Assembly (NCBI GenBank): GCA_964019425.1
Contig: OZ025793.1
Coordinates: forward strand, 1,240,001-1,304,000
Origin: Flectonema sp. DT1601
Lineage: Eukaryota
DNA: 64,000 bases
Reading direction: 5' to 3'
The notes under the pieces are model-generated. The model was not told where the DNA came from. It did no database searches and saw nothing but the letters and a program-made list of their open reading frames with translations. The stretch's first letter is position 1, and each line of letters opens with the position of its first letter. Position numbers and translations under genes: made by a program. This document shows positions 32,683 to 63,299 of this stretch, piece after piece.

Positions 32683-32812
32683 AGGGAGAATAAGGCCTTT
32701 CGACATCAGTTTCTTGAAACTTAATTTTCGGTATTCAGTGTTTGTGCTTGTGCTTGTTGCTTGTCAGCAGGTTAAATTTCATTCTTTAACAGTTCAAAAA
32801 AATAGAAAAAAG

Positions 32813-32885
32813 TGGTCACAATGGGGCTCGAACCCATGGCCAATGGCTTATTAGACCAACGCTCTACCGACTGAGCTATGCGACC
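32813..32885 (-). tRNA. tRNA-Ile (anticodon AAT)
   Basis: Minus strand reads GGTCGCATAGCTCAGTCGGTAGAGCGTTGGTCT-AAT-AAGCCATTGGCCATGGGTTCGAGCCCCATTGTGACCA; cloverleaf with one anticodon-stem mismatch, followed by a T6 terminator. Confidence 0.9.
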
Positions 32886-33389
32886 TGTATTCAAGAAAAC
32901 TGTTTTTTTTTTTCTGGTTACACTCGTCTGTGCTACCAAACTCTTTGTTTTTGTTCTTTTCACTTCTATGTTTTGTCTTTCTTTAATACTTTCTTTTTAA
33001 CTTAAGTCTGACAAATTGGAAAACACGGGAAACATAGGTAGGCTCCGCCTGAGGACGTAAGAAGAGCGGCAACGGAAAAAATAAATGGTCACGCGTCCTT
33101 GAAATTGGATACATGAAGCTAATTCGGTTGCCATTCCTACCATCGATAAGGAAAACAAAGAGTCGAGCATATAACTAGAGCGGTGGTCAAAGACCACTTG
33201 AACAGCCCGAAGGCCTGCCCTCAAGAGAAATTTATAAGGAGAATAGGAGAAGAAGGAGACAGGAGTGTTGGATGAGACACTGCTACAACACCGAAGGTGA
33301 TGTGCAGTTACCCAACCAGGAGATGATTGATAATGATGAAAATACTAAAATAATAACAAATTGATATTGGCGACTACATGTCACCTACT

Positions 33390-36300
33390 TTACTTCCAAA
33401 GTCTAAGGTTAGATGTTTGTTCCATCCACCTTATGATCAACGCGAGTGATGGAAGCCACGCCAAAGTGAAGAGAGCTTCAAGGTTAGGAATTTCGTTGGC
33501 AATAATAAGTTCTCGATCGCGATCCCACTTGCCGGTCAGTGTTGAGAAGCCCAGGATTTTGAACCTGGCAGAGTCGAGTTTGGGAGATTGACATCCCTGC
33601 AGCAGGTGAACCTGTGAGGACGGTTCGCCACAAAATGGGCAGTCGATCGTCTTGCGCCAGTTCTGAATTAGCGGGTGACATCCTGTCCGGAAGTTCGCTA
33701 TCCGTATCTCGTCGGCTCTTTCCATCCCAGGAGGGTATTTAACGGAACGGCCTCTGATGAGGTGTTTGTAGCAGGTGTAACCACTCACGTTAAGCAGATC
33801 CTTTTTGATGCAGCGCTTCACATGTGATGATCGCGAGAAGTACGTGCCTTTGACTAGCACAGGTCGGATGTTCTTGTTGTGCGCTGCTTCCTTTGCAAGC
33901 GCGTCAACTTCATCGTGAAACTCGATTCCAATGTGCGAGGGGATGAATTGCAAATGCACTTTCATCTCACACATGCGCAGGTATTCCAGTATCTTGAGGG
34001 ACTCGGTATTCCTCTGTCTGCACCTTCCACCCAGCAGTTCATCCAGAAGGGATTTTGAGTCCGTGAATATCCTCACAGATTTCATTGAACGATCTTTGCT
34101 AAACACTGTTCTCAGATGTCTAGCCGCGTTCTTCAGAGCATGTTGTTCAGCCCTGTAGCTGCAGTCAGCTTGATAAAGCCTAGACGCGTAAGCAGATCGA
34201 AGGCCGCTACGTGACTTGGCAATATGAGCCGCACCGGCCGCGCCGGAAGCAGAGTAGGAGCCATCGCAGTTGATTACCATGTCGACAGGAGGCAACGTTC
34301 CAATGTACGACATGAACTTTTCTTTGTCCACCGCAGGGTTCGCGGACTTCGGAAATCCGCAGCTGTTGCTAATCCTAAGGTTCGTCGGAGATACCCAGGG
34401 TTCCATCGAGTCAGGCTGCACAAGGCACTGGCTTTCACGCTGACTATCAGTGCCAGGGATTAGGCCAGCCCAGTAGCTTTGTGTTGAGGCGAGTCTGTTT
34501 GTATTAGGTATCCAAGTCATGGCTTTATACCGGTAGTACGCAATTTTTGTCTGCTTTTCAATCTGACGTTTAAAAGGATACATGTCAGACTCCCACAACA
34601 GTAACTCTCTTGGCGTACACTTGCTGCATCCAGTAACCAGTCTGGCGACCTTCCTCAGTTCGAAGTCGATGCTGTCAACGCTGCTGCTTATCAGCCAACC
34701 AAAACTGTCAAGCGCATACGAGATTCTCGCGGTTACATAAAGGTTCTTAACCATGTTAAGAGTCTTGTAGTCCAGTTCGTACGGCTGGAGGCACTGCAGA
34801 AGTGATATCCCCCTCTTTAATTCTTCGTGAATCTTGCCTACTTGTTTGTGGAAGGTGAGCCTGTCGTCGATGTGAACCCCGAGGTATTTTACTGAGTCGA
34901 CTATCGGTAACAGAAAGGCAGTTTTGAATATTGTTCTCACAACCATAATGCTGTCCTCACGAACGACGTATTGCAGCATCAAGTTGTCGAGTTCTTCTTG
35001 TGTCTTGATTGGGATTCCTCCAATTTCAAGAATAGTTTCGCCACTTTGAAGCATGGGTCTGGGTGATTTGAGATTGATATGCTTCTCGATGTCACCATAG
35101 TCAAGTTTAAGCATGCGTTCCTCAACAGATCTAGAGAAAAGCAGTTCGCGATTACACGTATCGTTTAGTACTATGCCCTTCGAGCGAACATTCATCTTAA
35201 GCGCACAGGTTTTGGAGACTGATAAGGCCATGTCGTTTTCAAAACACCATTGATCCACTTTGTCGAGTACTAACTGAGCATTCGAAAGAGCTTCTTCCAT
35301 GTTTGATCCTGACACCACACATGCTGTGTCATCCGCATACAGAGCAGACGTCGTTGTTTCCTTCTCTAGTTCCAAAATCTTGCAGAGGTCATCAACGTAG
35401 ATAAGATAGAGAAGAGGACCCAGGATCGATCCCTGGGGAACCCCCTTAGCCAGAGTACGGAATTCGCTAAAGTAACCATTCGCTTCAACTCTAACCTTCC
35501 TGTTTGTAAGAAAGTCTGTGATCCATCTGATAATAACATTCGGAACACCCATCTTTACTAATTTTAATAAAAGTATCTTATGGTTGATCCTGTCAAACGC
35601 AGCAGTAAAGTCGAATGACAAGAACACTGATCTCTTTTCTTCCATGTGGCTCCTTACGATAGCATCTACTAGAACGGTGATCTGCTCGCAGGTATTTCTC
35701 CCCTTTCTGAATCCAGCCTGTAGTGGGCTGAGCGACGAATGTTTTGTGAGCCAGTGCATGAGTCGGTCATACACGAGCCTCTCCGCAAGTTTCCCAACAA
35801 CCGAGGTGAGCGTTATTGGTCTGAAACTCTTTAGTTCATTACGAGGTTTCCCTGCCTTGAACATGGGCTTGATTAGTCCCTGTTTCCATTGGTACGGTAC
35901 TTTTGAAGTCTTCCAGGAAGTGTTAATAATTCTCAAGAGGTATTCCACTGTTGCCGGAGTGAAGTTTTTGATCATCTCATTGTGAACTCCATCAGGTCCT
36001 GCAGCCTTGCGGGTCTTTAGGTTCTTAATCGCAGCTTTAATTTCAGCCATTGTGAAATCACAGCAAATATCTATTTCATTATCACCTTCTGAGAGTGCGG
36101 GGGCCTCTAGCGATAATATTTCCGATTTCGAGACAAACAGGTCCAAGAATGCTGATGGTAGATCGCAGTCAGAGATGTTGTTGACACTGATATCTTTACC
36201 GGCATCTTGCTGCAGTTCTTTGATCTTCTTAAACGCAAAGGCAAAGTTGTTACCCTTGTCAAGTTGATCACGTAGGTGGACACCCTTCGATTTGGTAGAA

Positions 36301-37301
36301 TCAGGGGTTGACGTCTTCCACTTTCGTCTCCGTTTCCCTTTGAAAAGGAGACGTCGACGAATGAATTTAGCCGCCACTTCATGCAGTATGTTGTTAAAGA
36401 GCTTGGCATTCGCAGTTGCATCAACGGAGAGTCTTGATTTTCTAATTCTCTTTTCGAGCATGGTCCCAAAGCAGTTCCAGTCCGTAGACTTGAAGTCCCA
36501 TACAACGCGTTTCTTCGAACCTATCGTGGCCCGTGCAAGTTGGCACATGGGATCCAGTACGGTGTAGAGAGGTCGATGATCTGACCCATGTTTATTATCT
36601 TCTTCAATTGCACTAAATTCTTCAAGAACCATCGAGTTTGAAAAGAATACTACATCTGGCGAGGTACCACCCCCCGGGACGTCAGGAAAAGGCCTTGTGA
36701 TTGACCCCATCTTGTTAGCAACCAGTAGATCATTTTGAGCTGCCCATGCATGTAGAGTTGAACCTGCTCTCGTCGATTTAAGTGACCACACCGGATGATG
36801 GGCATTAAAGTCACCCGCGACGATTGCTTTCGTTGAGACTGGAAGATCTGACTCTCTGATCATGCATCCCGGGGGAGCATAAACATTGATGATGTCAATC
36901 TTTCCACCTATGTTGACCTTCACGACCTCGACATCATTTAAGTGTGGCGGAAGCTCCATGTTCAAACGCTGCTGAGTGTGGCATTTTTTCACCATAGAAA
37001 TAACCCCTCCACCTCGTGTTGCCCTATCATTCCGATAGGTGAAATAGTCCGTGTGCGAAATTACATCATTCGTCCAAGTCTCCTGTAGGCACAGTACGTC
37101 AGGCGCATAGGCATTAAGCAGCTTGTGAATATAAGCGCCTTTGTTCCCCATCGATCGACAGTTCCAGCTCAGTAGAGATATGAGAGAGTTGTCAGGGCCA
37201 GGGTTGCGTTCGACGTCGCCTGCCTTTAGCAGCAGTTCACGAGCCGTATCCTTTTCCACAAGTGAGTTGGTCGGACTGAGTTCATCCTCATCGTCATCTA
37301 G
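33390..37301 (-). CDS. A1 ORF2: acidic linker, 2A peptide, AP endonuclease, RT, RNase H, C-terminal CCHC
   Basis: GDVERNPGP; SWNCRS, LQETW, GDFNAH, SDH; GVPQGSILGP, YADD; DGS, FTDS, HIGIEFHDEVD; CPFC..H...C. Confidence 0.95.
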   Translation of the reverse strand, partial: LDDDEDELSPTNSLVEKDTARELLLKAGDVERNPGPDNSLISLLSWNCRSMGNKGAYIHKLLNAYAPDVLCLQETWTNDVISHTDYFTYRNDRATRGGGVISMVKKCHTQQRLNMELPPHLNDVEVVKVNIGGKIDIINVYAPPGCMIRESDLPVSTKAIVAGDFNAHHPVWSLKSTRAGSTLHAWAAQNDLLVANKMGSITRPFPDVPGGGTSPDVVFFSNSMVLEEFSAIEEDNKHGSDHRPLYTVLDPMCQLARATIGSKKRVVWDFKSTDWNCFGTMLEKRIRKSRLSVDATANAKLFNNILHEVAAKFIRRRLLFKGKRRRKWKTSTPDSTKSKGVHLRDQLDKGNNFAFAFKKIKELQQDAGKDISVNNISDCDLPSAFLDLFVSKSEILSLEAPALSEGDNEIDICCDFTMAEIKAAIKNLKTRKAAGPDGVHNEMIKNFTPATVEYLLRIINTSWKTSKVPYQWKQGLIKPMFKAGKPRNELKSFRPITLTSVVGKLAERLVYDRLMHWLTKHSSLSPLQAGFRKGRNTCEQITVLVDAIVRSHMEEKRSVFLSFDFTAAFDRINHKILLLKLVKMGVPNVIIRWITDFLTNRKVRVEANGYFSEFRTLAKGVPQGSILGPLLYLIYVDDLCKILELEKETTTSALYADDTACVVSGSNMEEALSNAQLVLDKVDQWCFENDMALSVSKTCALKMNVRSKGIVLNDTCNRELLFSRSVEERMLKLDYGDIEKHINLKSPRPMLQSGETILEIGGIPIKTQEELDNLMLQYVVREDSIMVVRTIFKTAFLLPIVDSVKYLGVHIDDRLTFHKQVGKIHEELKRGISLLQCLQPYELDYKTLNMVKNLYVTARISYALDSFGWLISSSVDSIDFELRKVARLVTGCSKCTPRELLLWESDMYPFKRQIEKQTKIAYYRYKAMTWIPNTNRLASTQSYWAGLIPGTDSQRESQCLVQPDSMEPWVSPTNLRISNSCGFPKSANPAVDKEKFMSYIGTLPPVDMVINCDGSYSASGAAGAAHIAKSRSGLRSAYASRLYQADCSYRAEQHALKNAARHLRTVFSKDRSMKSVRIFTDSKSLLDELLGGRCRQRNTESLKILEYLRMCEMKVHLQFIPSHIGIEFHDEVDALAKEAAHNKNIRPVLVKGTYFSRSSHVKRCIKKDLLNVSGYTCYKHLIRGRSVKYPPGMERADEIRIANFRTGCHPLIQNWRKTIDCPFCGEPSSQVHLLQGCQSPKLDSARFKILGFSTLTGKWDRDRELIIANEIPNLEALFTLAWLPSLALIIRWMEQTSNLRLWK

Positions 37302-38960
37302 TCAGTTGAGATCAAAGTCCGAATCGTTACTTTCCATTTCTACGTCACGGTTTTTATCACTATCCTGCTTAGCAGCAGATTCGGTGGGCGGTGTTGTTGT
37401 TTGTGCTGTTGCTGGTGCTGGCGTTGGTGTTGGTGCTGATGGTGCTGGCGCTGGTGTTGGTGCTGATGTCGGCTGCTGAGTTGGCTGTTGTGGTTGAGGA
37501 GTTGTTTTTTGTCTCTTCAGGGTTCCCGTTAGTTTTTGAGCCGCGTCGCCTGGGTTGTAGGTTGGGCCTAGCGGTTTTCTGTCAGTTCGTTTAACTTCTT
37601 TGTTTATCACAAGGTATTCATTAGTACCTATGCTTATGAAGTTGGGCGGTTGAGATTTCGCAATTGCAACAATTGTAGTACTCCCTCCTTTATGGAAAGA
37701 AGCAACAACTGTGTGTTCCCAGTTGTGTGAGGACTTCAAGAAGTCGCTGATCTGCGCTGTCGAGTACTTACGAATCGCCATCGAATTTATAACAAACCTG
37801 TCGCCCGAGGGCAGTGCAGGCTTGATTGCCGCGTTGAGCTTAATGCTGACCCTGATATTACAGTCAGGGTGGACTCGGAGTCCAAAACAGCTTTTAAACC
37901 TGCACATGTAGAATTTTCCTTTGAATTCATCAAGTGCAGAAGTCTTGGACTTCGCTGCCAGGAAGCCAAGGTCGTTTTTGAATTGCAACGTTGGCCAAAC
38001 GTCACTTCCGTTCGACCAACTCGGGTTTCTGAAAAAGACATTCTTGGGTTTGTCAGTTTCGGGTTCGCTGTTGTTGTATTCCAGAACCTCGTGTACTTGG
38101 TTTCTGGGGACTCTGAAAGCCATCGAGGTGTGGGACTCGTTCTTTCTGTAGCTAAAGGGGTCCGCCTTTATCTTCAATTTCTTTAGAATATCGGTCGTTT
38201 TGACGGTCAATTCTTTCTCAGCTGATTTACCCCAGTCTTGGATGAATAGAACTGGGTTGGGAGTTGGAATCTGGTGGCTAGTTGCTGCTTTAGAAAAGTC
38301 GTCACCAAATACGTGCGTGTAAAATACGCGCCTGATCTCGCAGACGCCACCCTTTTTTATCACCGGTAATGCTACTGGAACGGTGCTCTTTGTGAGCGGG
38401 ATTTTGCTGATAGCAGCCCAACGGCCGCTCTTCTTTGTTTGGCGGAGTGCTTCTAAGTCTAGCTTCGAACGAACTAAAACAAGACCAGAGGTAAGGTTGT
38501 TTGTAGCATTAGCTGCTACGTCGTAACTGATGGTGGCCACAGCGCCTGCCCACGCACCGTGAATGTGCCACTCCGGGTAGCTTGCTTTTGCCTTTCCCTT
38601 CGTGGTTTGATTGTCCTTCATTGCTGTCGGTATCGGCAATGAGAACGGCTTCGTACTCGTTTGTTGATTAGAAGCTGTAGATGCTCCTGTAGTTGGTTGG
38701 TTGACACCTGTAGTTGAGGGTGTCGTCGCTTCTGCTGCCGTCGTCGCGGTCGCTTCCGTCCCACCACTCCCATCGAGTGTGTCCGGTGTCCTCCTCTTCA
38801 TCTCCGGGTTCCCACCTTCTGACCCAGCTACGAATTGAACGATCTCCATTAGGAGATTTGCCACCCTTCTTTCCTTCTCTTGCTCCGGGATCCCGTCTTC
38901 TCCCACTATCTTCAGGAGGTTTATTGCCTCCGATACCAACCTCTTCAGGTTGTCTCTCAT
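37302..38960 (-). CDS. A1 ORF1 (552 aa from first ATG), ending in TGA-CTAG
   Basis: Open frame; its C-terminal half is conserved in copy A2. Confidence 0.85.
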   Translation of the reverse strand: MRDNLKRLVSEAINLLKIVGEDGIPEQEKERRVANLLMEIVQFVAGSEGGNPEMKRRTPDTLDGSGGTEATATTAAEATTPSTTGVNQPTTGASTASNQQTSTKPFSLPIPTAMKDNQTTKGKAKASYPEWHIHGAWAGAVATISYDVAANATNNLTSGLVLVRSKLDLEALRQTKKSGRWAAISKIPLTKSTVPVALPVIKKGGVCEIRRVFYTHVFGDDFSKAATSHQIPTPNPVLFIQDWGKSAEKELTVKTTDILKKLKIKADPFSYRKNESHTSMAFRVPRNQVHEVLEYNNSEPETDKPKNVFFRNPSWSNGSDVWPTLQFKNDLGFLAAKSKTSALDEFKGKFYMCRFKSCFGLRVHPDCNIRVSIKLNAAIKPALPSGDRFVINSMAIRKYSTAQISDFLKSSHNWEHTVVASFHKGGSTTIVAIAKSQPPNFISIGTNEYLVINKEVKRTDRKPLGPTYNPGDAAQKLTGTLKRQKTTPQPQQPTQQPTSAPTPAPAPSAPTPTPAPATAQTTTPPTESAAKQDSDKNRDVEMESNDSDFDLN

Positions 38961-39018
38961 AATTGCTTTTTCCTGTGAAACGTACCCACTGATTCTTACC
39001 AATATTAGGTTGCGAAAT

Positions 39019-39034
39019 CAATAAAGTACAGAAA
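39019..39034 (-). other. spliced-leader remnant at the 5' end of A1
   Basis: Reverse complement is TTTCTGTACTTTATTG, the 3' 16 nt of the Leishmania/Diplonema-type SL exon. Confidence 0.85.
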
Positions 39035-41755
39035 ACTGACGGTATTGGTTTCAACCAAACTTCTTATCGGAAAACGCGTTCTTGCCGGGAAAACATCCTA
39101 TATGTTACGGACAGACTTAGATTTCTTAAACACCAAAAAAAGTCAGCGGCCCTTGTTCTTCTTGATATCGAAAAAGCTTTTGATAGTGTGAACCATGATC
39201 TTCTCCTTCAAAGGATGGTAGATCTTGGAATACCAAAACATTTTATAGCCTGGATTCAGGCCTTTCTTAAAAAACGAAGAGCAGCGGTTGTTGTTAATAA
39301 TGAAAAAGGTTCTTACCACAATGTTTATTCTGGCGTTCCACAAGGAACAGTTTTGTCGGCTCTACTTTTTACTCTGTATATTGAAAAAGTCGCAGAAAGA
39401 CTAGATATTACGGTTGCTAAGTATGCGGATGATATTGCTTTTGTAGTTGATGATGAAGGGAAAGGTTTTACTTATCATTTGGCAAAAACGAAATATTTCT
39501 TTAATGAGATTGAAAAGGATCTAAACGAATTAAAATTAAAAGTAAGTTATGAGCCTGACAAAACAAAACTTGTGTATTATCCCTACTCCCCAAATTCCCC
39601 ACTACAAACACCTTTCACTTTTACTTCAAATTTAACAAAAAATATTGTTCCATGTGTTGATAGCGCCAAGCTTCTTGGGGTGATCCTTGATAACAAGCTC
39701 GATTGGAAACAGCATATCTCGTATATTTGTAGAAGAGTTAATCTTCGCTTAAGGTATCTGAAGCTTGTCGCATCAAAAGCATGGGGACAGTGTACTGCAA
39801 CTTTGCGTGAGGTGTATGATTTGTATATTCGACCTGTCATAACAAACTCGTGTGAAGCTTTTTATCCTGAAGTTAGGTATAAAAAGATTCACATGGACAG
39901 GCTTCTCTCTTTACACCTTAGGGGTGCGTGCTATGTCTTAGGTGCCTTACCACCAACAAGGGAAACAAGAGATAAGATCTTTTTTGAGGCACAACAACAA
40001 AGTATCAACACCCATTTGAGACTTGAAACTGGTAGATGGTTCGCCAAAATGGCGCGAATCACGTCCCCTTTATTAAATGTCTTTATTCCACCTGAAAGAA
40101 TATCCTCAACACCCATTGATTCTTTTACTCGTTTAGGAATGAATGTTCTGAAAGAACACAACCTTCTATCACTCAGTTTTGAGAAATATCCCATTTACGT
40201 TCATCCTCCATGGAGTTTTTCAAATGATTTCAATGTTTTTAAACCAGAAATGCATGTTAGAAAAAAAAAAGACAAAAAGAAAAATAAAAAAGCCTGTGAA
40301 GCTGTTCTTAATGAAATAAGGAAAGATTATGAACCAGTCTTAGAGGTATATACCGATGGTGCCGTTGTTGAAGAACGCGGTGCTGCGGGTGTGTACATCA
40401 TAGACAGCGAAGGAAATGAATTTCTCACAAACAAAAGTGAAGCAGGAATAATCTGCACCTCTTTTAGGGCTGAAATGATGGCGATCAAAAACGCTTTTGT
40501 TTTACTTTTTAAGGAATTTGAACCGCCGGAAAATGCGTCAGTTTTATTTGTGTCAGACTCCTCCAGTGCCTTGATGGAACTGGAAAAAGGGGGAACAAAA
40601 CAGAAAACGAGACTAGGAAGCCGCATCTGGCAGTTTATTGAATTTTTCAACAATAAATTCAAAACAAAGTTTATTTTCCAGCATGTCTTTTCTCACTGTG
40701 GTATTGTCGGAAACGAAGAAGCAGACAAACTAGCCCAAAACATTTCATTAAAAAAAGATGAAGAAACCCTTTTAAAACAAAAAAAAGTTCCCATAGACTA
40801 CAGCACCCATGTAGCTAAACTAAAACACAGAATAAAAGAAAAATTTGACCCCCGTCCTTTCCCATCTGAAACTGAAAGAGCGGAAGAAATTCTGATTTCA
40901 CAACTCAGAATTGGCGACTGTAAACAAACACAAGGGAAATGTCCTAGGTGCAGAGAAAAAGACTCTGTAGAGCACCTGTTAGCAAAATGCTCAAAGTACA
41001 GAAAAGAGAGGAGGATGTATCTCCAGAAAGACTCTCTAACACAAGAAGAGTTAAAGGATTGTCTTTCCACTGTACAAGGACTAGAGAATGTTTTTCTTTT
41101 TATGTCATCTGCAAGAAGATATGTTTTTCCAGAAAAAGAAAAGAAAAAAGAAAATTTGAGTCAGGAAACAAAGAAAGAAAATGAAGAAAACGTTATCCTT
41201 CAACCCACACTTTTCAATACTGTGATTCAAAACTCACAACTGACTTGATTTCTCAAGCTTCCAAATTAACCAAAGTAGCACCTACACCATGGGGATGGTC
41301 TGATTGTTGATTGACTGATGGGCCGATATAGATTGGACACAGATCGAGAGTTTTTGAGAGATCTTAGATGAAAGTCCGCACCTTTCAGGCCATCCCCAAA
41401 AAGCACATAGCAGCTACAGCTATGTCAATTCAAATTGCGACGAGCTGCAACTTCGACATGAAGTTTTTCGTTATTGTTCTTACCTTCTCCACATATTTAC
41501 ATATGTGATAAGTATAAGTCATATCTTACGATTGACAATTCCTCCCCATAAATAAATTTCTTTTTATTATTTTATTTTACACCTGCCTTACTAACTTGGG
41601 GAGAAAGAAAGGAAGAACAATGGGCCTCTTATGAGGTGGGCAATTGCCCTGGACCCACATTAAATGTACGCGTGTTTTGCGTCAGCCCGTTGCTGTAGAA
41701 AAAGAAGAGACAGTTTCAGGTAGTAATGAAAAAAAAAAAAAAAAAAAAAAAAAAA
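39030..41755 (+). mobile_element. non-LTR retrotransposon family B, copy B1 (5'-truncated inside RT; RT-RNase H-CCHC open to 41248; 3' UTR; poly(A))
   Basis: GVPQGTVLS, YADD, YTDGA, HCGIVGNEEAD, CPRC..H...C; poly(A) run of about 27 nt; near-identical to B2. Confidence 0.93.
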
Positions 41756-41780
41756 TTCAAAAAAAGGTTTTATTTATTAC

Positions 41781-41940
41781 TGATCCTTCGCTTTATATTA
41801 ACTGTGTCTTGAGATTCCTATCCGGGGAAGTCCTCCAACGGACTCAGGACAGTTGCGCTTGTTTTTACTTATTTACTTTATCAAAAAATAAGAAGGGCAA
41901 GAATGCTCAGAATGAAGAAAAATAAAGTGGAAAGACAGGG
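41781..41940. repeat. structured dispersed repeat D, copy 1
   Basis: Shares TTCCTATCCGGGGAAGTCCTCCAACGGACTCA and flanking hairpins with 54189-54332. Confidence 0.75.
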
Positions 41941-42053
41941 GGGATGTGACTAAATAAATAAATAAAAAAAAAGGTTTTTTTTCTTTCTTTTTTTTTCTTT
42001 TTTCGGGAAGATAAAATGGAAACTACTTTCTTTGTCCTTTCTCATTATACATA

Positions 42054-45000
42054 TTTTTTTTGGTTACACTCGTCTGTGCTACCAAACTCTTTGTTTTTGT
42101 TCTTTTCACTTCTATGTTTTGTCTTTCTTTTATACTTTCTTTTGGCTTAAGTCTGACAAATTGGAAAACACGGGAAACATAGGTAGGCTCCGCCTGAGGA
42201 CGTAAGAAGAGCGGCAACGGAAAAATAAGTGGTCACGCGTCCTTGAAATTGGACACATGAAGCTAATTCGGTTACCATTCCTACCATCGATAAGGAAAAA
42301 ACAAAGAATCGAGCATATAACTAGAGCGGTGGTCAAAGACCACTTGAACAGCCCGAAGGCCTGCCCTCAAGAGAAATTTATAAGGAGAATAGGAGAAGAA
42401 GGAGACAGGAGTGTTGGAAGAGACACTGCGACAACACCGAAGGTGGTGTGCAGTTACCCAACCAGGAGATGATTGATAATGATGAAAATACTAAAAAAAT
42501 AATAACAAATTGATATTGGCGACTACATGTCACCTACTTTACTTCCAAAGTCTAAGGTTAGATGTCTGTTCCATCCACCTTATGATCAACGCGAGTGATG
42601 GAAGCCACGCCAAAGTGAAGAGAGCTTCAAGGTTAGGAATTTCGTTGGCAATAATAAGTTCTCGATCGCGATCCCACTTGCCGGTCAGTGTTGAGAAGCC
42701 CAGGATTTTGAACCTGGCAGAGTCGAGTTTGGGAGATTGACATCCCTGCAGCAGGTGAACCTGTGAGGACGGTTCGCCACAAAATGGGCAGTCGATTTTC
42801 TTGCGCCAGTTCTGAATTAGCGGGTGACATCCTGTCCGGAAGTTCGCTATCCGTATCTCGTCGGCTCTTTCCATCCCAGGAGGGTATTTAACGGAACGGC
42901 CTCCGATGAGGTGTTTGTAGCAGGTGTAACCACTCACGTTAAGCAGATCCTTTTTGATGCAGCGCTTAACATGTGATGATCGCGAGAAGTAAGTGCCTTT
43001 GACTAGCACAGGTCGGATGTTCTTGTTGTGCGCTGCTTCCTTTGCAAGCGCGTCAACTTCATCGTGAAACTCGATTCCAATGTGTGAGGGGATGAATTGC
43101 AAATGCACTTTCATTTCACACATGCGCAGGTATTCTAGTATCTTGAGGGACTCAGTATTCCTCTGTCTGCACCTTCCACCCAGCAGTTCATCCAGAAGGG
43201 ATTTTGAGTCCGTGAATATCCTCACAGATTTCATTGAACGATCTTTGCTAAACACTGTTCTCAGATGTCTAGCCGCGTTCTTCAGAGCATGTTGTTCAGC
43301 CCTGTAGCTGCAGTCAGCTTGATAAAGCCTAGACGCGTAAGCAGATCGAAGGCCGCTACGTGACTTGGCAATATGAGCCGCTCCGGCCGCGCCGGAAGCA
43401 GAGTAGGAGCCATCGCAGTTGATTACCATGTCGACAGGAGGTAACGTTCCAATGTACGACATGAATTTTTCTTTGTCCACCGCAGGGTTCGCGGACTTCG
43501 GAAATCCGCAGCCGTTGCTAATCCTAAGGTTTGTCGGAGATACCCAGGGTTCCATCGAGTCAGGCTGTACAAGGCACTGGCTTTCACGCTGGCTGTCAAT
43601 GCCAGGAAGGAGGCCAGCCCAGTAGCTTTGGGTTGAGGCGAGTCTGTTGGTACTAGGTATCCAAGTCATGGCTTTATACCTGTAGTACGCTATCTTGGTT
43701 TGCTTTTCAATCTGACGTTTAAAAGGAAGCATGTCCGCTTCCCACAGTAGAAGTTCTCTCGGTGTGCACCTGCTGCATCCAGTAACCAGCCTGGCAACCT
43801 TCCTCAGTTCGAAATCAATACTATCAACGCTGTTGCTTATCAACCAACCAAAGCTATCGAGCGCATAAGAGATTCTCGCAGTTACGTAAAGGTTCTTGAC
43901 CATATTTAGCGTTTTGTAGTCAAGATCATACGGTTGAAGGCATTGAAGCAGAGATATTCCCTTTTTCAGTTCTTCATGAATCTTAGCCACCTGTTTGTGG
44001 AAAGTGAGTCTGTCGTCGATGTGAACTCCGAGGTATTTCACTGAGTCCACGATTGGCAACAGAAATGCGGTTTTAAAACTGGCTTTCACCACCATCACGT
44101 TGTCTTCGAGAACAATATTCCGCAACATCACGTTGTCAAGTTCGTCTTGCGTTTTGATCGGAGTTCCATCAACCTCGAGAATAGTTTCGCCGCTTTGAAG
44201 CATGGGTCTAGAAGAAGTTAAGTTGATACTCTTTTCAATGTCACTATAGTCCATTTTGATAACGTTTTCCACAACAGATCTGGAAAATAGTAATTCGCGA
44301 TTGCAGGTGTCGTTGAGAATCGTATCCTTCGTACGGACTTTCATCTTAAGAGCACAGGTCTTTGAGACCGACAGGGCCATGTCGTTGTCAGAACACCATT
44401 GATCCACTTTATCAAGTATTATTTGAGCATTTGAAAGAGCTTCTTCCATGTTATGTCCAGATACTACACATGCTGTATCATCCGCATACAGAGCAGACGT
44501 CGTTGTTTCCTTCTCCAGTTCCAAAATCTTGCAGAGGTCATCAACGTAGATAAGATAGAGAAGAGGACCCAGGATCGATCCCTGTGGAACCCCCTTAGCC
44601 AGAGTACGGAATTCGCTAAGATAACCATTCGCTTCAACTCTAACCTTCCTGTTTGTAAGAAAGTCTGTGATCCATCTGATAATAACATTCGGAACACCCA
44701 TCTTTACCAATTTTAATAAAAGTATCTTATGGTTGATCCTGTCAAACGCAGCAGTAAAATCAAACGATAAGAACACCGATCTCTTTCTCTTCATGTGCAT
44801 CCTTACGACGGCATCTACCAAAACGGTGATCTGTTCGCAGGTATTTCTCCCCCTTCTGAATCCAGCCTGTAGTGGGCTGAGTGACGAATGTTTAGTGAGC
44901 CAGTGCATGAGTCGGTCATACACGAGCCTCTCCGCAAGTTTCCCAACAACCGAGGTGAGCGTAATGGGTCTGAAACTCTTCAGCTCATTTCGAGGTTTTC

Positions 45001-47290
45001 CAGCCTTGAACATAGGCTTGATTAAACCTTGTTTCCACTGGTACGGTACTTTTGAAGTCTTCCAAGAAGTGTTAATAATTCTCAAGAGGTATTCCACTGT
45101 TGCCGGAGTGAAGTTTTTGATCATCTCATTGTGAACTCCATCAGGTCCTGCAGCCTTGCGGGTCTTCAGGTTCTTAATCGCTGCTTCAATTTCAGCCATT
45201 GTGAAATCACAGCAAATATCCATTTCATTATCACCTTCTGAGAGTGCGGGGGCCTCTAGCGATAATATTTCCGATTTCGAGACAAACAGGTCCAAGAATG
45301 CTGATGGGAGATCGCAGTCAGAGATGTTGTTGACACTGATATCTTTACCAGCATCTTGCTGCAGTTCTTTGATCTTCTTAAACGCAAAGGCAAAGTTGTT
45401 ACCCTTGTCAAGTTGATCACGTAGGTGGATACCCTTCGATTTGGTGGAATCTGGAGTTGACGTCTTCCACTTTCGTCTCCGTTTCCCTTTGAAAAGGACA
45501 CGTCGTCGAATGAATTTAGCCGCTACTTCATGCAGTATGTTGTTAAAGAGCTTAGCATTCGCAGTTGCATCGTTGGAGAGTTTCGATTTTCTAATTCTCT
45601 TATCGAGCATATTTCCAAAGCAGTTCCAGTCCGTAGACTTGAAGTCCCACACTACGCGTTTCTTAGAACCTATCGTGGCCCGTGTAAGTTGACACATGGG
45701 ATCCAGTACGGTGTAGAGAGGTCGGTGATCAGATCCATGTTTATTATCTTCTCTAATTACAGAGAATTCTTCCAGAATCATCGAGTTTTGAAAAAATACT
45801 ACGTCCGGCGAGGTACCGCCCCCCGGGATATTAGGAAAAGGCCTTGTGATTGACCCCATCTTGTTGGCTACCAGTAGATCATTGTGTGCTGCCCATTCAT
45901 GTAGAGTAGAACCTGCTGGCGTCGATTTTGATGACCACACCGGATGATGGGCATTAAAGTCACCCGCGACGATTGCTTTCGTTGAGACTGGAAGATCTGA
46001 CTTTCTGATCTTGCATCCCGGGGGAGCATAAATATTTAAGATGTCAATCTTTCCACCTATGTTGACCTTTACAACTTCAACATCATTTAAGTGAGGCGGA
46101 AGTACGATATCAGAACGCTGCTGAGTGTGGCATTTCTTCACCATAGTAATAACCCCACCACCCCGTGTTGCCCTATCATTCCGATAGGTAAAATAATCCG
46201 TGTGTGAGACTACATCTTTTGTCCAAGTTTCTTGCAGGCACAGTACGTCAGGCGCATAGGCATTGAGCAGCTTGTGTATGTAGGCACCTTTGTTCCCCAT
46301 TGATCGACAGTTCCAGCTTAGTAGTGATATGAGGGAGTCGTCAGGGCCAGGGTTGCGTTCGACATCGCCTGCCTGAAGCAGCAGTTCACGAGCCGTATTC
46401 TTTTCTGTGAGTGAGTTGGTCGGATTTAAATCATCGTCATCTTCATCTAGTCAGTTGAGGTCAAAATCCGAGTCATCGTCTTCCATTTCAACATCGCCGT
46501 TCTTATCACCTTCTTGTTTAACAGCAGATTTAGTGGGTGGTGGAGCTGATGCTGGTGTGGGTGCTGGCGCTGGTGTCGGTGCTGCTGCCGTCTGATGTGG
46601 TAGCTGAGTTGGTTGTTGTGGTTGAGGAGCTGTCTTCTGTCTCTTCAGGGTTCCTGTCAGTTTTTGAGCCGCGTCGCCTGGGTTGTAGGTTGGGCCTAGC
46701 GGTTTTCTGTCACTTTTCTTAACTTCCTTGTTTATCACAAGGTACTCATTGGTGCCTATGCTCACGAAGTTGGGAGGCTGCGTGTTTGAAATCGCCACAA
46801 TCGTAGTGCTTCCACCTTTGTTAAACGATGCGACCACTGTGTGCTCCCAGTTGTGAGAGGACTTCATAAAGTCGCTGATCTGCGCTGTTGAGAATTTCCG
46901 TATCGCCATTGATTTTATAATGTACCTGTCACCGGAAGGCAGTGCAGGTTTGAGTGACGCGCTTAACTTAATACGCACTTCAGTGTTGCAGTCGGGATGA
47001 ACTCGGAGTCCATAACAGGTTTTGAACTTACACAGGTAGAATTTACCTTCGAAACCTTCCAGTATTGATGTCTTGGACTTTGCTGCCAAGAATCCAAGAT
47101 CGTTATTGAATTGAAGAGTTGGCCAGACATCGCTTCCATTTGACCAGCTCGGGTTTCTGACAAATACATTCTTAGGTTTGTCGGTCTCCGGGTCGTTATT
47201 GTTAAACTCCAGAATCTTGTGTACTTGGTTTCTGGGAATTCTAATAGCCATTGAGGAATGTGAATCATTTCGTTTGTAACTGAAAGGGGC
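42054..47290 (-). mobile_element. family A copy A2 (5'-truncated in ORF1; ORF2 intact)
   Basis: Same 3' UTR and terminus as A1; ORF1 C-terminal half, TGA-CTAG, 2A and ORF2 all present. Confidence 0.95.
42539..46450 (-). CDS. A2 ORF2 (linker, 2A, APE, RT, RNase H)
   Basis: In frame with the ORF1 stop; RELLLQAGDVERNPGP. Confidence 0.93.
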   Translation of the reverse strand, partial: LDEDDDDLNPTNSLTEKNTARELLLQAGDVERNPGPDDSLISLLSWNCRSMGNKGAYIHKLLNAYAPDVLCLQETWTKDVVSHTDYFTYRNDRATRGGGVITMVKKCHTQQRSDIVLPPHLNDVEVVKVNIGGKIDILNIYAPPGCKIRKSDLPVSTKAIVAGDFNAHHPVWSSKSTPAGSTLHEWAAHNDLLVANKMGSITRPFPNIPGGGTSPDVVFFQNSMILEEFSVIREDNKHGSDHRPLYTVLDPMCQLTRATIGSKKRVVWDFKSTDWNCFGNMLDKRIRKSKLSNDATANAKLFNNILHEVAAKFIRRRVLFKGKRRRKWKTSTPDSTKSKGIHLRDQLDKGNNFAFAFKKIKELQQDAGKDISVNNISDCDLPSAFLDLFVSKSEILSLEAPALSEGDNEMDICCDFTMAEIEAAIKNLKTRKAAGPDGVHNEMIKNFTPATVEYLLRIINTSWKTSKVPYQWKQGLIKPMFKAGKPRNELKSFRPITLTSVVGKLAERLVYDRLMHWLTKHSSLSPLQAGFRRGRNTCEQITVLVDAVVRMHMKRKRSVFLSFDFTAAFDRINHKILLLKLVKMGVPNVIIRWITDFLTNRKVRVEANGYLSEFRTLAKGVPQGSILGPLLYLIYVDDLCKILELEKETTTSALYADDTACVVSGHNMEEALSNAQIILDKVDQWCSDNDMALSVSKTCALKMKVRTKDTILNDTCNRELLFSRSVVENVIKMDYSDIEKSINLTSSRPMLQSGETILEVDGTPIKTQDELDNVMLRNIVLEDNVMVVKASFKTAFLLPIVDSVKYLGVHIDDRLTFHKQVAKIHEELKKGISLLQCLQPYDLDYKTLNMVKNLYVTARISYALDSFGWLISNSVDSIDFELRKVARLVTGCSRCTPRELLLWEADMLPFKRQIEKQTKIAYYRYKAMTWIPSTNRLASTQSYWAGLLPGIDSQRESQCLVQPDSMEPWVSPTNLRISNGCGFPKSANPAVDKEKFMSYIGTLPPVDMVINCDGSYSASGAAGAAHIAKSRSGLRSAYASRLYQADCSYRAEQHALKNAARHLRTVFSKDRSMKSVRIFTDSKSLLDELLGGRCRQRNTESLKILEYLRMCEMKVHLQFIPSHIGIEFHDEVDALAKEAAHNKNIRPVLVKGTYFSRSSHVKRCIKKDLLNVSGYTCYKHLIGGRSVKYPPGMERADEIRIANFRTGCHPLIQNWRKKIDCPFCGEPSSQVHLLQGCQSPKLDSARFKILGFSTLTGKWDRDRELIIANEIPNLEALFTLAWLPSLALIIRWMEQTSNLRLWK

Positions 47291-47357: not shown

Positions 47358-48313
47358 TTTTTTTCTTTTTTTTGGTTACACTCGGGGGCGTCATAGTGCA
47401 GTGGATGGGGTGGTGCCCCCGCACCCAATCGGCCTCGGTTCGAACCCCGCTGTACGCACCGCGCCTCACAGCGCAATCAGTTTCCGTGTCGCATCCCCCA
47501 TTGTCTCGAAAAAGTGAACGGCCACCCAGTAAGGGCAGCGCCTAAGCAATTATAGTAGTAACAAAAAGAAGGAGAAACACAGTAGTGAAACACTCAAAAA
47601 AAAAAAAAAAAAAGGTTACACTCGTCTGTGCTTCCAGACTCTTTGTTTTTGTTCTTTTCACTTCTTTGTTTTGTCTTTCTTTTATACTTTCTTTTGATTT
47701 AAGTCTGACAAATTGGAAAACACGGGAAACATAGGTAGGCTCCGCCTGAGGACGTAAGAAGAGCGGCAACGGAAAAATACATGGTCACGCGTCCTTGAAA
47801 TTGGACACACGAAGCTAATTCGGTTACCATTCCTATCATCGATAAGGAAAAACAAAGAATCGAGCATATAACTAGAGCGGTGGTCAAAGACCACTTGAAC
47901 AGCCCGAAGGCCTGCCCTCAAGAGAAATTTATAAGGAGAATAGGAGAAGAAGGAGACAGGAGTGTTGGAAGAGACACTGCGACAACTCCGAAGGTGATGT
48001 GCAGTTACCCAACCAGGAGATGATTGATAATGATGAAAATACTAAAAATTATAACAAATTGATATTGGCGACTACATGTCACCTACTTTATTTCCAGAGT
48101 CTAAGGTTAGATGTCTGTTCCATCCACCTTATGATCAACGCGAGTGATGGAAGCCACGCCAAAGTGAAGAGAGCTTCAAGGTTAGGAATTTCGTTGGCAA
48201 TAATAAGTTCTCGATCGCGATCCCACTTGCCGGTCAGTGTTGAGAAGCCCAGGATTTTGAACCTGGCCGAGTCGAGTTTGGGAGATTGACATCCCTGCAG
48301 CAGGTGAACCTGT
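47358..48313 (-). mobile_element. family A copy A3 (short 3' fragment) interrupted by a SINE
   Basis: 3' UTR and last ~75 codons match A1/A2. Confidence 0.9.
47385..47613 (+). mobile_element. tRNA-derived SINE with poly(A) and 11-bp TSD
   Basis: A box TAGTGCAGTGG, B box GGTTCGAACCC, A18 tail; GGTTACACTCG at 47374-47384 and 47614-47624. Confidence 0.85.
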
Positions 48314-54188: not shown

Positions 54189-54332
54189 TGATCATTAGCT
54201 TTGTATTTACAGGGTCGTGAGCTTCCTATCCGGGGAAGTCCTCCAACGGACTCACATAATTGCACTCGTTGTTGCTTATTTACTTAGTTATAAAATAAGA
54301 GGAGCGAGTATGCTCAGAAAGTAGAAAGACAG
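54189..54332. repeat. structured dispersed repeat D, copy 2
   Basis: Homologous to 41781-41940. Confidence 0.75.
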
Positions 54333-54386
54333 GAGATTAATAAATGTTTATTTGTTCAACCCCCGTAGCAGACCTCCCACTCCTTT

Positions 54387-54398
54387 TGTACTTTATTG
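54387..54398 (+). other. spliced-leader remnant upstream of the 1177-aa ORF
   Basis: TGTACTTTATTG ends 16 nt before the ATG at 54415. Confidence 0.7.
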
Positions 54399-54414
54399 AA
54401 ACCAACACATTCCA

Positions 54415-62373: not shown

Positions 62374-63299
62374 CAAAGCAACGCAGGTTTCTTATGGTTA
62401 ACAGTGCTGCAGCTTCTGTAATTTATTGACTCATGGGTTTGTGGTGCACTCAAAAAAAAAAAAAACTATGAAGGAAGTTGATAAGACAGAATGAAGTGTA
62501 GAAACATAACTAAGCCCCGCTGAGCTGAGTAATTCCGTGTTCATAACGGGTTTCCCTCTGATTTGAGTGGGAGATGAAAGGGGAATCAGTTTCTGGTTAT
62601 TATGGAACTGATTTGAACCTTAATAATATGCTACACTAGAACCGGTTAGTTAATTCCTTATTTCATAACCGCCTCTACTGCGTACATACACTGTTGAAAT
62701 AATTTCTGTTTCCATTGAAGTTGCATCCATAAAAATTACTGTTATTGATAAACAGAGGACCAAGCCTTGGATACAGATGGCAGATTAGTATTGGAGCTTC
62801 CCGTCTGGAGGTCTTCAGCGTAGTGAGAAGCTGATCCATCCGAAACAACGGGAAGACCTTGTCCCTCCAAGAGTATGTTGTACATTATTCGGTAGGCTGC
62901 CTTCGCATCACTTGTTTCTCCGGTTATCTAACATGATGATCACAGAAGGCTCAGAAAAAAGAGAACGCGCTACGCACCCAAACGGGGACAAGCCTGAAAA
63001 CAGCTGTAGTGGAAACTGGCTGGTCCAGTTTTCTGCCGAATGTCGTCTTTCCCGACATTTCATCAACTTATTGTCATCAATTTTTAGTTTTTCTGCGGTA
63101 GAAACTCTTCTTCCGTCTTGCTCCTTGAAATGTCTTAGCCAACACTAATAATCTAATCATTGGCGCGAATATCCAGTACTCCCAGTATACGCCAAATTCT
63201 AGATTTGCTTCAGTCAAACGATTCTATAACGTGAAGGTGAAAAAAACGATTTTTCTTTTTCTTAGCTTAAACACCGTGCCACCAGATTTAACTCAGAAT

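What the first reader, a model, noticed from the sequence alone, without database searches (positions are those of the whole stretch)
39000..39038. Retrotransposon whose 5' end is a reverse-transcribed spliced leader
Seen: on the minus strand A1 begins TTTCTGTACTTTATTG|ATTTCGCAACC..., 58 nt upstream of the ORF1 ATG, with no SL intron after it. Known: this is the 3' end of the euglenozoan SL exon; L1Tc/ingi instead start with an internal promoter and HDV-like ribozyme. Inference: family A RNA gets its 5' end by host trans-splicing. That raises the question of how daughter copies regain an acceptor. The downstream AATATTG-GTAAG may be an older SL relic or a splice donor (weak).
Basis: partly seen in the sequence, partly recalled or inferred. 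Interest (0 to 1): 0.85.

Follow-up and report, generated by a model that had tools for sequence, protein, structure and literature searches.

The report
LINE copy headed by spliced-leader remnant
An intact jumping gene (LINE) in what is probably a euglenozoan protist begins with the last 11 letters of the kinetoplastid/diplonemid mRNA spliced leader, so it was likely copied from a trans-spliced messenger RNA, but only this one full-length copy could be examined.

Summary
Only part of it belongs to the element. A second family B copy and a perfect 9-bp target-site duplication (AGAAAACTG at 32894-32902 and 39030-39038) show that CAGTTTTCT is target DNA. A1's own first bases are GTACTTTATTG, which equal the last 11 nt of the published euglenozoan spliced-leader (SL) exon.

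An 11-nt match starting at the first base after the duplication has a chance probability of about 5e-7. The last 5 target bases (TTTCT) continue the SL, which fits 5' joining by microhomology. Two more SL-like tails lie in the window, one 16 nt before a 1177-aa ORF.

The most likely reading is that A1, or an ancestor, was reverse-transcribed from an SL-trans-spliced family A mRNA. This resembles the relic leaders of dinoflagellate retrogenes.

Three things remain unproven:
- the host SL was not seen;
- no other full-length 5' junction could be fetched;
- there are no RNA data.

A1 has no AG acceptor at this site. The "AATATTG-GTAAG older relic" is weak. Verdict: partly supported, a new variant of a known kind, moderate interest.

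The parts
39019..39029 (-). A1's own first 11 nt, GTACTTTATTG, identical to the last 11 nt of the euglenozoan SL exon (SL relic)
   Evidence: SL sequence from the table in PMC3795323
39030..39038 (.). Right copy of the 9-bp target-site duplication (+ strand AGAAAACTG, minus strand CAGTTTTCT). It is family B DNA. Its last 5 nt on the minus strand (TTTCT) continue the SL, a possible microhomology.
32894..32902 (.). Left copy of the 9-bp target-site duplication, directly after A1's poly(A)
32903..32913 (-). A1 poly(A) tail (11 T on the + strand)
32914..33389 (-). A1 3' untranslated region, shared with A2 and A3
33390..37259 (-). A1 ORF2, 1289 aa, with an apurinic-type endonuclease and a reverse transcriptase
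   Evidence: Pfam Exo_endo_phos 1.2e-12 and RVT_1 1e-32; best solved relative is human LINE-1 ORF2p, 3.8e-20
37302..38960 (-). A1 ORF1, 552 aa, no Pfam family. The start M(R/K)D(N/D)L(R/K) is shared by all 3 relatives whose sequences were read.
38961..39018 (-). 58-nt leader between the SL relic and the ORF1 ATG. It has no upstream ATG. It contains TATTG|GTAAG and three AG dinucleotides (AAG, CAG, CAG).
42054..47289 (-). A2, a 5'-truncated family A copy (89.7% identical to A1 32908-38160). It lacks the 5' end.
47614..48313 (-). A3, a 3' fragment of family A. Its last 11 nt and poly(A) lie at about 47358-47386, split off by the S1 insertion.
39030..41020 (+). B1, a 5'-truncated family B LINE (RT plus RNase H) that served as target. 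Its first 10 nt also stand at 32893-32902. Its 3' limit is probably the A27 run at about 41728-41754.
32812..32885 (-). tRNA-Ile(AAT) gene. B1's 5' end lies 8 nt upstream of it and A1's duplication 9-17 nt upstream.
54384..54398 (+). Second SL-like tail, TTTTGTACTTTATTG (14 of 15; the last 12 nt are exact), 16 nt before the ATG of a 1177-aa ORF (54415-57948). No target-site duplication found.
62410..62428 (+). Third SL-like tail, CAGCTTCTGTAATTTATTG (17 of 19), followed by 23 nt and then A14 (62452-62465). No target-site duplication found.

Best explanation
A1 is an intact endonuclease-type LINE copy whose first 11 nt are most likely a reverse-transcribed remnant of the host's spliced leader: the family A RNA that gave rise to A1 (or to an ancestor of it) would have been SL-trans-spliced 58 nt upstream of the ORF1 AUG.

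Shown directly:
- A1 (32903-39029, minus strand) has ORF1, then ORF2 with endonuclease and reverse transcriptase, an 11-nt poly(A) and a perfect 9-bp target-site duplication.
- It was inserted into the first bases of a 5'-truncated family B element, 9-17 nt upstream of a tRNA-Ile gene.
- Its own sequence starts GTACTTTATTG|ATTTCGC.

Inferred:
- The template RNA carried more of the SL. The cDNA end was probably joined to the target's ...CAGTTTTCT-3' end through the 5-nt microhomology TTTCT, which trimmed the leader to 11 nt.
- With only a 58-nt leader, the family probably has no promoter of its own. It would then depend on read-through transcription and host trans-splicing for its cap.
- A1 has TG, not AG, before ATTTCGC. 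It cannot be spliced again at the same site. It would need another AG, either in the flank or at AAG/CAG 23-29 nt further down behind the pyrimidine-rich relic.
For: 1. Element boundaries. B2 aligns at 99% to 39030-41020, and the alignment breaks at the junction. The 9-nt AGAAAACTG is repeated at 32894-32902 and 39030-39038 next to T11.
2. SL identity. CAGTTTCTGTACTTTATTG ends 7 of the 14 euglenozoan SL types listed in PMC3795323 (passages read). A1's first 11 nt equal its last 11.
3. Chance. p = 4.7e-7 at a fixed place. The exact 11-mer occurs 2 times against 0.09 expected, and 0 of 100 simulations reached 2.
4. Exon boundary. The base after TTATTG is A, not the GT of an SL intron, so the source was a spliced RNA, not an SL RNA gene.
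5. Microhomology. The target bases next to the junction (TTTCT) are the next 5 nt of the SL, with p about 1.5e-3 at a fixed place.
6. Other SL-like tails. Two more stand in the same 64 kb, both in the sense of what follows. The 15-mer gives 3 sites against 0.29 expected. The 19-mer gives 2 sites against 0.05 expected.
7. Active retroposition. S1 is a tRNA-like insert with A18 and an 11-bp duplication. A2 and A3 are 5'-truncated copies.
8. Messenger-like leader. The leader has no upstream ATG. The ORF1 start is conserved in the 3 relatives read. One Trinity gene of a EukProt transcriptome holds both an ORF1-like and an ORF2-like product, so a relative is transcribed.
9. No other 5' device found. 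No Rfam family, ribozymes included, matches the 5' region at E up to 10 or the window at gathering score apart from the tRNA.
Against: - Only one full-length copy could be examined. A2 and A3 lack the 5' end.
- The host's own SL was never seen: there is no SL RNA gene in the window, no genome is held, and there are no RNA data.
- That the host is a euglenozoan rests on the SL-like tails and on an all-plus-strand ORF array. The ATG3 search gave only unnamed transcriptome relatives (81% and 60% identity), then a heterolobosean at 38%.
- Only 11 nt are A1's own. The longer apparent match is target DNA.
- The other two SL-like sites have no recognisable target-site duplication, so they are not proven retrocopies.
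- A1 has no AG before ATTTCGC, so the cycle cannot repeat at that site.
- Short SL suffixes (8-9 nt) are not enriched in the window.
Confidence: 0.65

Rival explanations
1. Inherited relic. An ancestor of family A once captured an SL tail, and it is now a fixed part of the family's 5' UTR. It would be copied along with the element and not renewed by trans-splicing in each generation. A1 may also be slightly 5'-truncated inside a longer UTR.
For: One copy cannot separate renewal from inheritance. A1 lacks an AG at the junction, so splicing at that very site cannot be repeated by daughters. Leader nt 2-19 may be a second, decayed SL tail: 12 of 16 positions match with one 2-nt gap, and 0.22% of 5000 random 18-mers reach that score. 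That would mean relics are carried along.
Against: The 11 nt are a perfect match, while A1 and A2 differ by 10% overall, which suggests a recent origin. The relic starts at the first base after the duplication and continues into SL-like microhomology. That is what a 5' end inside a longer SL would give.
Confidence: 0.2
2. Chance resemblance. A T-rich 5' end happens to look like the SL tail, helped by the neighbouring target sequence.
For: The 11-mer with up to 1 mismatch is not clearly enriched (4 against 1.29; 3 of 100 shuffles reach 4). Suffixes of 8-9 nt are at chance level.
Against: p = 4.7e-7 for the exact 11-mer at the first base of the element. There are 2 exact copies in the window against 0.09 expected, and 0 of 100 simulations reached 2. 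Both lie just upstream of long ORFs in the sense direction.
Confidence: 0.05
3. Chimeric retrocopy. The reverse transcriptase reached the uncapped 5' end of an unspliced family A RNA at ATTTCGC. It then switched template onto another RNA ending in the SL exon, such as the free SL exon splicing intermediate. This would be analogous to U6-L1 chimeras (recalled).
For: Template switching at RNA 5' ends is known for LINE reverse transcriptases (recalled, not from a call). The result would look the same in a single copy.
Against: The switch would have to land exactly at the 3' end of the SL exon. The intact SL RNA carries an intron after TTG, which is absent here. The free exon intermediate is short-lived (established knowledge of trans-splicing).
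Confidence: 0.05
4. SL-gene-associated element. Family A would be like SLACS/CZAR/CRE, which live inside SL RNA genes, and the SL letters would come from such a target.
For: SL letters stand at an element boundary. TATTG|GTAAG in the leader looks like an exon-intron boundary.
Against: The target is family B DNA next to a tRNA gene, with a duplication that is not SL sequence. The endonuclease is the apurinic type, not the restriction-like type of SLACS/CZAR/CRE (recalled). The SL letters are on the element's side of the duplication.
Confidence: 0.03

Closest known systems
Relic spliced leaders (DinoRL) of dinoflagellate retrogenes ('recycled' processed cDNAs)
   Same: A DNA-encoded remnant of the host SL stands at the 5' end of a sequence that entered the genome by reverse transcription of a trans-spliced mRNA (PMC12014239, passages read; abstracts of PMC5585692 and PMC6050394 in the listing).
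   Different: Here the tagged sequence is the retrotransposon itself, not a host gene. The SL is of the kinetoplastid/diplonemid type. In dinoflagellates the relic is trimmed by a new splice at an AG inside the SL, and relics stack. In A1 the trimming is explained by the insertion junction, and stacking is only a weak hint.
L1Tc / ingi LINEs of trypanosomatids
   Same: These are endonuclease-type non-LTR retrotransposons of SL-trans-splicing hosts, and they accumulate in transposon-rich, tRNA-bearing regions.
   Different: L1Tc starts with the 77-nt Pr77 internal promoter and an HDV-like ribozyme, and gives unspliced transcripts (abstracts of PMC1874656, PMC3185411 and PMC3383444 in the listing). 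A1 has a 58-nt leader behind an SL tail, no Rfam ribozyme match and no RNase H hit in ORF2.
SLACS / CZAR / CRE elements, specific for SL RNA genes
   Same: Their copies are also physically joined to SL letters.
   Different: In those elements the SL letters are the insertion target, an SL RNA gene, and the endonuclease is restriction-like (recalled, not from a call). A1 sits in family B DNA with a non-SL duplication and has an apurinic-type endonuclease.
Human LINE-1
   Same: Shared features are ORF1 plus ORF2 with an apurinic-type endonuclease and reverse transcriptase, a poly(A) tail, short target-site duplications, frequent 5' truncation and microhomology at 5' junctions. The best solved relative of ORF2 is L1 ORF2p (3.8e-20).
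   Different: L1 has a long 5' UTR with an internal promoter (established knowledge). A1's ORF1 has no Pfam family and no solved relative. Its model was too poor to place.

Membership tests
SL-relic retrocopy (reverse-transcribed trans-spliced RNA, as in dinoflagellate DinoRL retrogenes) | The 3' end of the SL exon is written in the DNA and joined directly to the mRNA body, without the SL intron | tested here: met
   GTACTTTATTG|ATTTCGC at 39029-39019, and the next bases are not GT. The SL tail comes from the PMC3795323 table.
SL-relic retrocopy (reverse-transcribed trans-spliced RNA, as in dinoflagellate DinoRL retrogenes) | Hallmarks of retroposition: a poly(A) tail and a target-site duplication that place the relic at the 5' boundary | tested here: met
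   An 11-nt poly(A) and a perfect 9-bp duplication; the relic starts at the first base after it.
SL-relic retrocopy (reverse-transcribed trans-spliced RNA, as in dinoflagellate DinoRL retrogenes) | The relic equals the host's own SL | not testable with these tools
   No genome is held, there is no SL RNA gene in the window and no RNA run is listed. The only indirect support is two more SL-like tails in the window.
SL-relic retrocopy (reverse-transcribed trans-spliced RNA, as in dinoflagellate DinoRL retrogenes) | Independent copies or transcripts show the same SL-to-body junction, or a new SL in front of the relic | not testable with these tools
   No other 5' junction could be fetched.
SL-relic retrocopy (reverse-transcribed trans-spliced RNA, as in dinoflagellate DinoRL retrogenes) | Stacked relics from repeated rounds | tested here: inconclusive
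   Leader nt 2-19 against the 16-nt SL tail: 12 of 16 positions match with one 2-nt gap, and 0.22% of 5000 random 18-mers reach the score. The interval was chosen after the fact. The unanchored local score is at chance (79.5% of 5000 random 58-mers).
Endonuclease-type non-LTR retrotransposon (LINE) | Apurinic-type endonuclease and reverse transcriptase in one ORF, preceded by an ORF1 | tested here: met
   Pfam Exo_endo_phos 1.2e-12, Exo_endo_phos_2 1.7e-13 and RVT_1 1e-32. ORF1 is 37302-38960.
Endonuclease-type non-LTR retrotransposon (LINE) | Poly(A) 3' end, target-site duplication and 5'-truncated sister copies | tested here: met
L1Tc/ingi clade | Pr77 hallmark with an HDV-like ribozyme at the 5' end | tested here: inconclusive
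   There is no Rfam match in 38700-39300 at E up to 10 or in the window at gathering score. Whether Rfam holds a model of the L1Tc ribozyme was not checked, and no Pr77 sequence was available to compare.
L1Tc/ingi clade | RNase H domain after the reverse transcriptase | tested here: not met
   A1 ORF2 has no RNase H hit, whereas family B ORFs have one. That ingi/L1Tc carry RNase H is recalled. The EukProt relatives of ORF2 listed (P0129, P0131, P0134) do carry PF00075.
SLACS/CZAR/CRE (SL-gene-specific elements) | Insertion inside an SL RNA gene, flanked by SL gene sequence | tested here: not met
   The target is family B DNA 9-17 nt upstream of tRNA-Ile, and the duplication is AGAAAACTG.

The most novel reading that the evidence does not exclude
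Family A is a promoter-less LINE that lives entirely on the host's mRNA processing. It is transcribed by read-through of polycistronic units and capped by SL trans-splicing, and it copies itself from that spliced mRNA. The SL copy written into each full-length daughter carries the SL's own internal CAG and pyrimidine-rich tail. That copy would then serve as the heritable acceptor for the next round, as in dinoflagellate mRNA recycling. The decayed SL-like stretch at leader nt 2-19 behind the fresh 11-nt relic would be the trace of an earlier round. The SL-like TTTCT at the target would show that the leader also guides 5' end joining.
Probability: 0.15. Interest if true: 0.8.

Novelty: new variant of a known kind. 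Interest (0 to 1): 0.55.

Why it matters
LINEs normally carry an internal promoter, because everything upstream of the transcription start is lost on copying. Trypanosomatid L1Tc/ingi solve this with Pr77 and a ribozyme.

A LINE copy that starts with an SL tail is physical evidence that, in a host with kinetoplastid/diplonemid-type trans-splicing, the spliced and capped mRNA can be the retrotransposition template. This mirrors dinoflagellate retrogenes, but here the mobile element itself is tagged.

Three things would follow:
- an SL tail would become a simple marker for dating and counting retroposition events in such genomes;
- it would suggest a promoter-free life style for mobile elements inside polycistronic units;
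- it would pose a concrete, testable question: where do daughters get a splice acceptor?

My four literature searches found no description of this for kinetoplastid- or diplonemid-type hosts. They cover open-access papers only. Earlier unchecked notes of this scan list similar cases in dinoflagellates, Perkinsus and euglenids, so the habit may be general among SL-using lineages.

Tried and rejected
- **Own genome.** None is held, so no SL RNA gene and no other family A copies could be read.
- **Sequencing runs.** 4 runs with small shares (0.07-0.17) were listed, and no RNA holder was listed.
- **Laying the 4 runs on 32800-39200.** This gave low-depth contigs. Some in X3 were identical to the window, and one showed another insertion site at the poly(A) end. 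Nothing covered 38893-39029.
- **A second lay on 38650-39060 at 80% likeness.** This gave 2 X3 contigs, ending at 38858 and 38892 with unlike loose ends. No junction was covered.
- **Metagenome scan with the first 250 aa of ORF1.** This gave 1 locus (L001). It is a GC-rich bacterial contig and a false positive.
- **Genome-contig scan with a 20-mer of the leader.** This gave 2 hits, both inside coding sequence of Bacteroidales MAG contigs. They are chance matches of a 20-mer in 596 billion bases.
- **Viral contigs with ORF1.** Nothing was found.
- **Protein atlas with the PP2C host protein.** It gave no useful taxonomy.
- **ATG3 search for the host's placement.** It returned unnamed transcriptome relatives only.
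- **D. papillatum genome paper and 7 supplement files.** There was no mention of SL-headed repeats. The terms 'spliced leader' and the SL 13-mer had 0 occurrences in the supplements held.
- **Rfam on the 170-nt repeated unit and on the S1 insert.** Only chance-level rows came back.
- **ORF1 structure.** Mean pLDDT was 46 from a 4-sequence alignment. Foldseek against the PDB gave no match at E <= 0.001, and no fold is claimed.
- **Target-site duplications for the two other SL-like sites and for A2.** None was found.
- **Rejected: the SL match extends over CAGTTTTCT as part of A1.** That stretch is the target duplication.
- **Rejected: the 170-nt units at 41781 and 54189 are SL RNA genes.** They do not contain the SL tail.
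Full report
**What is at the coordinates.** On the minus strand the window reads ...aaaccaataccgtCAGTTTTCTGTACTTTATTGatttcgcaacctaatattggtaagaatcag...ATG. The G that ends the SL-like string is at 39019. The ATG of a 552-aa ORF is at 38960, so the leader is 58 nt. The bases after TTATTG are ATTT, so no SL intron (GT...) follows. The literal observation holds.

**The SL sequence in print.** A table in PMC3795323 lists 14 euglenozoan SL exon types (I read the passages). Seven of them end in CAGTTTCTGTACTTTATTG. My recollection that the type starting AACCAACG is the diplonemid one is recall only.

**The elements in the window.**
- A self-comparison and Pfam define family A on the minus strand. It has ORF1 with no Pfam family, then ORF2 with an apurinic-type endonuclease and reverse transcriptase.
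- A1 (32908-39029) is the only copy with a 5' end.
- A2 (42054-47289) matches A1 32908-38160 at 89.7% and is 5'-truncated.
- A3 (47614-48313) is a 3' fragment.
- Family B on the plus strand carries endonuclease, RT and RNase H. It has two copies: B1 at 39030-41020 and B2 up to 53234, 99% alike over 1991 nt.

**Where A1 really starts.**
- The alignment of the A1 junction with B2 shows that the + strand sequence AGAAAACTGACGGTATTGG... from 39030 onward is family B sequence.
- At A1's other end, the + strand reads ...TGTATTCA AGAAAACTG TTTTTTTTTTT CTGGTTACACTCG.
- AGAAAACTG is therefore a perfect 9-bp target-site duplication (32894-32902 and 39030-39038) flanking an element with an 11-nt poly(A).
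- On the minus strand the duplication reads CAGTTTTCT.
A1's own sequence begins GTACTTTATTG|ATTTCGC. The SL-identical part of A1 is 11 nt, not 16.

**Is 11 nt more than chance?**
- At the window's base frequencies, this 11-mer at one fixed place has p = 4.7e-7. The place is fixed by the duplication.
- The exact 11-mer occurs twice in the window against 0.09 expected; 0 of 100 simulations reached 2.
- The 15-mer with up to 2 mismatches occurs 3 times against 0.29 expected; 0 of 100 shuffles reached 3.
- The 19-mer with up to 3 mismatches occurs 2 times against 0.05 expected; 0 of 100 shuffles reached 2.
- Against this, the 11-mer with up to 1 mismatch is only weakly enriched (4 against 1.29; 3 of 100 shuffles reach 4).
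- Suffixes of 8 and 9 nt are at chance level.

**The other two SL-like sites.**
- 54384-54398 (+) reads TTTTGTACTTTATTG. It lies 16 nt before the ATG of an intact 1177-aa ORF with no Pfam family.
- 62410-62428 (+) reads CAGCTTCTGTAATTTATTG. It is followed by 23 nt and then A14.
- Both point in the sense of what follows, and neither is followed by GT.
- Neither has a recognisable target-site duplication. They show that this word is special in this genome, but they are not proven retrocopies.

**How the junction likely formed.**
- The 3' end of the duplication on the minus strand (...TTTCT) is the SL sequence that precedes GTAC. The CAG before it also fits, with one extra T.
- TTTCT at a fixed place has p about 1.5e-3.
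- LINE 5' ends are often joined where the target's free 3' end can pair with the cDNA (established for L1; recalled).
- This fits a template RNA that carried at least CAGTTTCTGTAC... and was joined by microhomology, which trimmed the leader to 11 nt. This step is inferred from one junction.

**What it means.**
- The simplest reading is that A1, or an ancestor, was reverse-transcribed from a family A mRNA that had received the host SL by trans-splicing at a site 58 nt upstream of the ORF1 AUG.
- The leader has no upstream ATG.
- ORF1's start M(R/K)D(N/D)L(R/K) is shared by the 3 relatives I read.
- One Trinity gene of a EukProt transcriptome holds both an ORF1-like and an ORF2-like product, so a relative is transcribed.
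- The family is large in public assemblies. ORF1 clusters have 20 and 13 members, and ORF2 clusters have 101 and 37 members.
- No ribozyme or other Rfam family matches the 5' region.
- A 58-nt leader leaves little room for an internal promoter. This contrasts with L1Tc's Pr77 and ribozyme, which I know only from abstracts in the listing.

**The acceptor problem.**
- A1 has TG, not AG, before ATTTCGC, so it cannot be spliced again at the same site.
- One option is that source copies carry a pyrimidine tract and AG there, which is lost in every spliced daughter.
- A second option is that daughters are spliced at other AGs. The relic and the start of the leader form a pyrimidine-rich stretch, followed by AAG and CAG 23-29 nt further down.
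- A third option applies to daughters that keep a long SL copy. The SL's internal CAG could be re-used, as in dinoflagellates, where a new leader is spliced onto an AG inside the old one and leaves a relic (PMC12014239, passages).
- A hint for the third option: leader nt 2-19 (TTTCGCAACCTAATATTG) align to the 16-nt SL tail at 12 of 16 positions with one 2-nt gap. Only 0.22% of 5000 random 18-mers of the window reach that score.
- I chose that interval after seeing the sequence. The unanchored local score is at chance (79.5% of 5000 random 58-mers), so this stays a weak lead.
A GTAAG...CAG intron would be 27 nt, too short to credit.

**What could not be done.**
- No genome is held.
- The four listed runs hold only low-depth contigs, and none crosses the junction.
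- The metagenome, genome and viral collections gave only false or chance hits.
- The host's SL and the other full-length junctions therefore remain unseen.
- The host's placement is indirect. It rests on the SL-like tails, on the 15 ORFs of 200 aa or more listed in the first 32.4 kb, 14 of them on the plus strand, the exception lying inside a longer plus-strand ORF, and on ATG3 relatives that are unnamed transcriptomes.

**Comparison with known systems.**
- The closest known phenomenon is the relic SL of dinoflagellate retrogenes (listing). Here the tag sits on the LINE itself and is of the kinetoplastid/diplonemid type.
- A1 is not an SL-gene-specific element of the SLACS/CZAR/CRE kind. The target is family B DNA next to a tRNA gene, and the endonuclease is the apurinic type.
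- A1 does not show the L1Tc/ingi 5' hallmark in the tests I could run.
- Four literature searches and the D. papillatum genome paper with its held supplements gave no description of SL-headed LINEs in kinetoplastid- or diplonemid-type hosts. Subscription papers were not searched.
- Earlier unchecked notes of this scan report SL-headed LINEs in a dinoflagellate, Perkinsus and euglenids. I did not test them.

**Verdict.**
An SL-derived 5' end is likely (0.65). Per-generation trans-splicing of the whole family is open.
- It is a new variant of a known kind, of moderate interest.

Noticed in passing
window 32812-32902 with 39030-41761: Two different LINEs entered within 20 bp upstream of one tRNA-Ile(AAT) gene. 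B1's 5' end lies 8 nt upstream of it, with a possible 5-6 bp duplication ATTCA(A) at 32889-32893 and after the A27 run near 41755. A1's 9-bp duplication lies 9-17 nt upstream. This may be a tRNA-upstream insertion hot spot.
   Followed up: partly
window 47387-47613 (+): A 227-nt plus-strand insert starts GGGGCGTCATAGTGCAGTGG, contains GGTTCGAACC (tRNA-like boxes) and ends in A18. It is flanked by an 11-bp duplication GGTTACACTCG inside the 3' end of A3. It is probably a retroposed small RNA or SINE. ARAGORN and Rfam do not call it.
   Followed up: partly
window 62410-62465 (+): An SL-like tail (17 of 19) is followed by only 23 nt (ACTCATGGGTTTGTGGTGCACTC) and then A14, just after the stop of a GDSL-lipase ORF. 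It could be a tiny retrocopy of a trans-spliced, polyadenylated RNA. No duplication was found.
   Followed up: partly
window 54384-57948 (+): An SL-like tail stands 16 nt before the ATG of an intact 1177-aa ORF with no Pfam family. The ORF has a C-terminal array of about 36-aa E/R-rich repeats. It may be a retrogene, but there is no clear poly(A) or duplication.
   Followed up: partly
window 41781-41960 and 54189-54350 (+): A unit of about 170 nt is present twice. Its first 66 nt are 88% alike, with a 32-nt identical core (CCTATCCGGGGAAGTCCTCCAACGGACTCA region). In the state before the B1 and A1 insertions, one copy would lie roughly 30-210 nt upstream of the tRNA-Ile gene in divergent orientation. 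It may be a small RNA gene or a promoter element. There is no Rfam match.
   Followed up: partly
window 3863-3951, 53444-53646, 53717-53907 (+): A dispersed or tandem repeat of about 90-200 nt (ATGGGGCGCTCAACCTGTAGTACG...) of unknown nature. One copy lies in the gene array and two lie downstream of B2.
   Followed up: no
window 1-32400: 14 of the 15 ORFs of 200 aa or more in the first 32.4 kb lie on the plus strand; the one minus-strand ORF (25226-26818) sits inside the 1402-aa SPRY ORF. They include PP2C with BRCT, ATG3, a histidine phosphatase, a papain-type protease, a RING/LON protein and a 1402-aa SPRY protein with 78-nt repeats. This looks like a polycistronic array that ends at the tRNA gene and the transposon cluster.
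   Followed up: partly
window 49593-49625 (+): An A-rich run (A14 GC A7) stands directly before the first endonuclease motif of B2. B2's 5' end and any ORF1 of family B could not be defined, so whether family B also starts with an SL tail is open.
   Followed up: no
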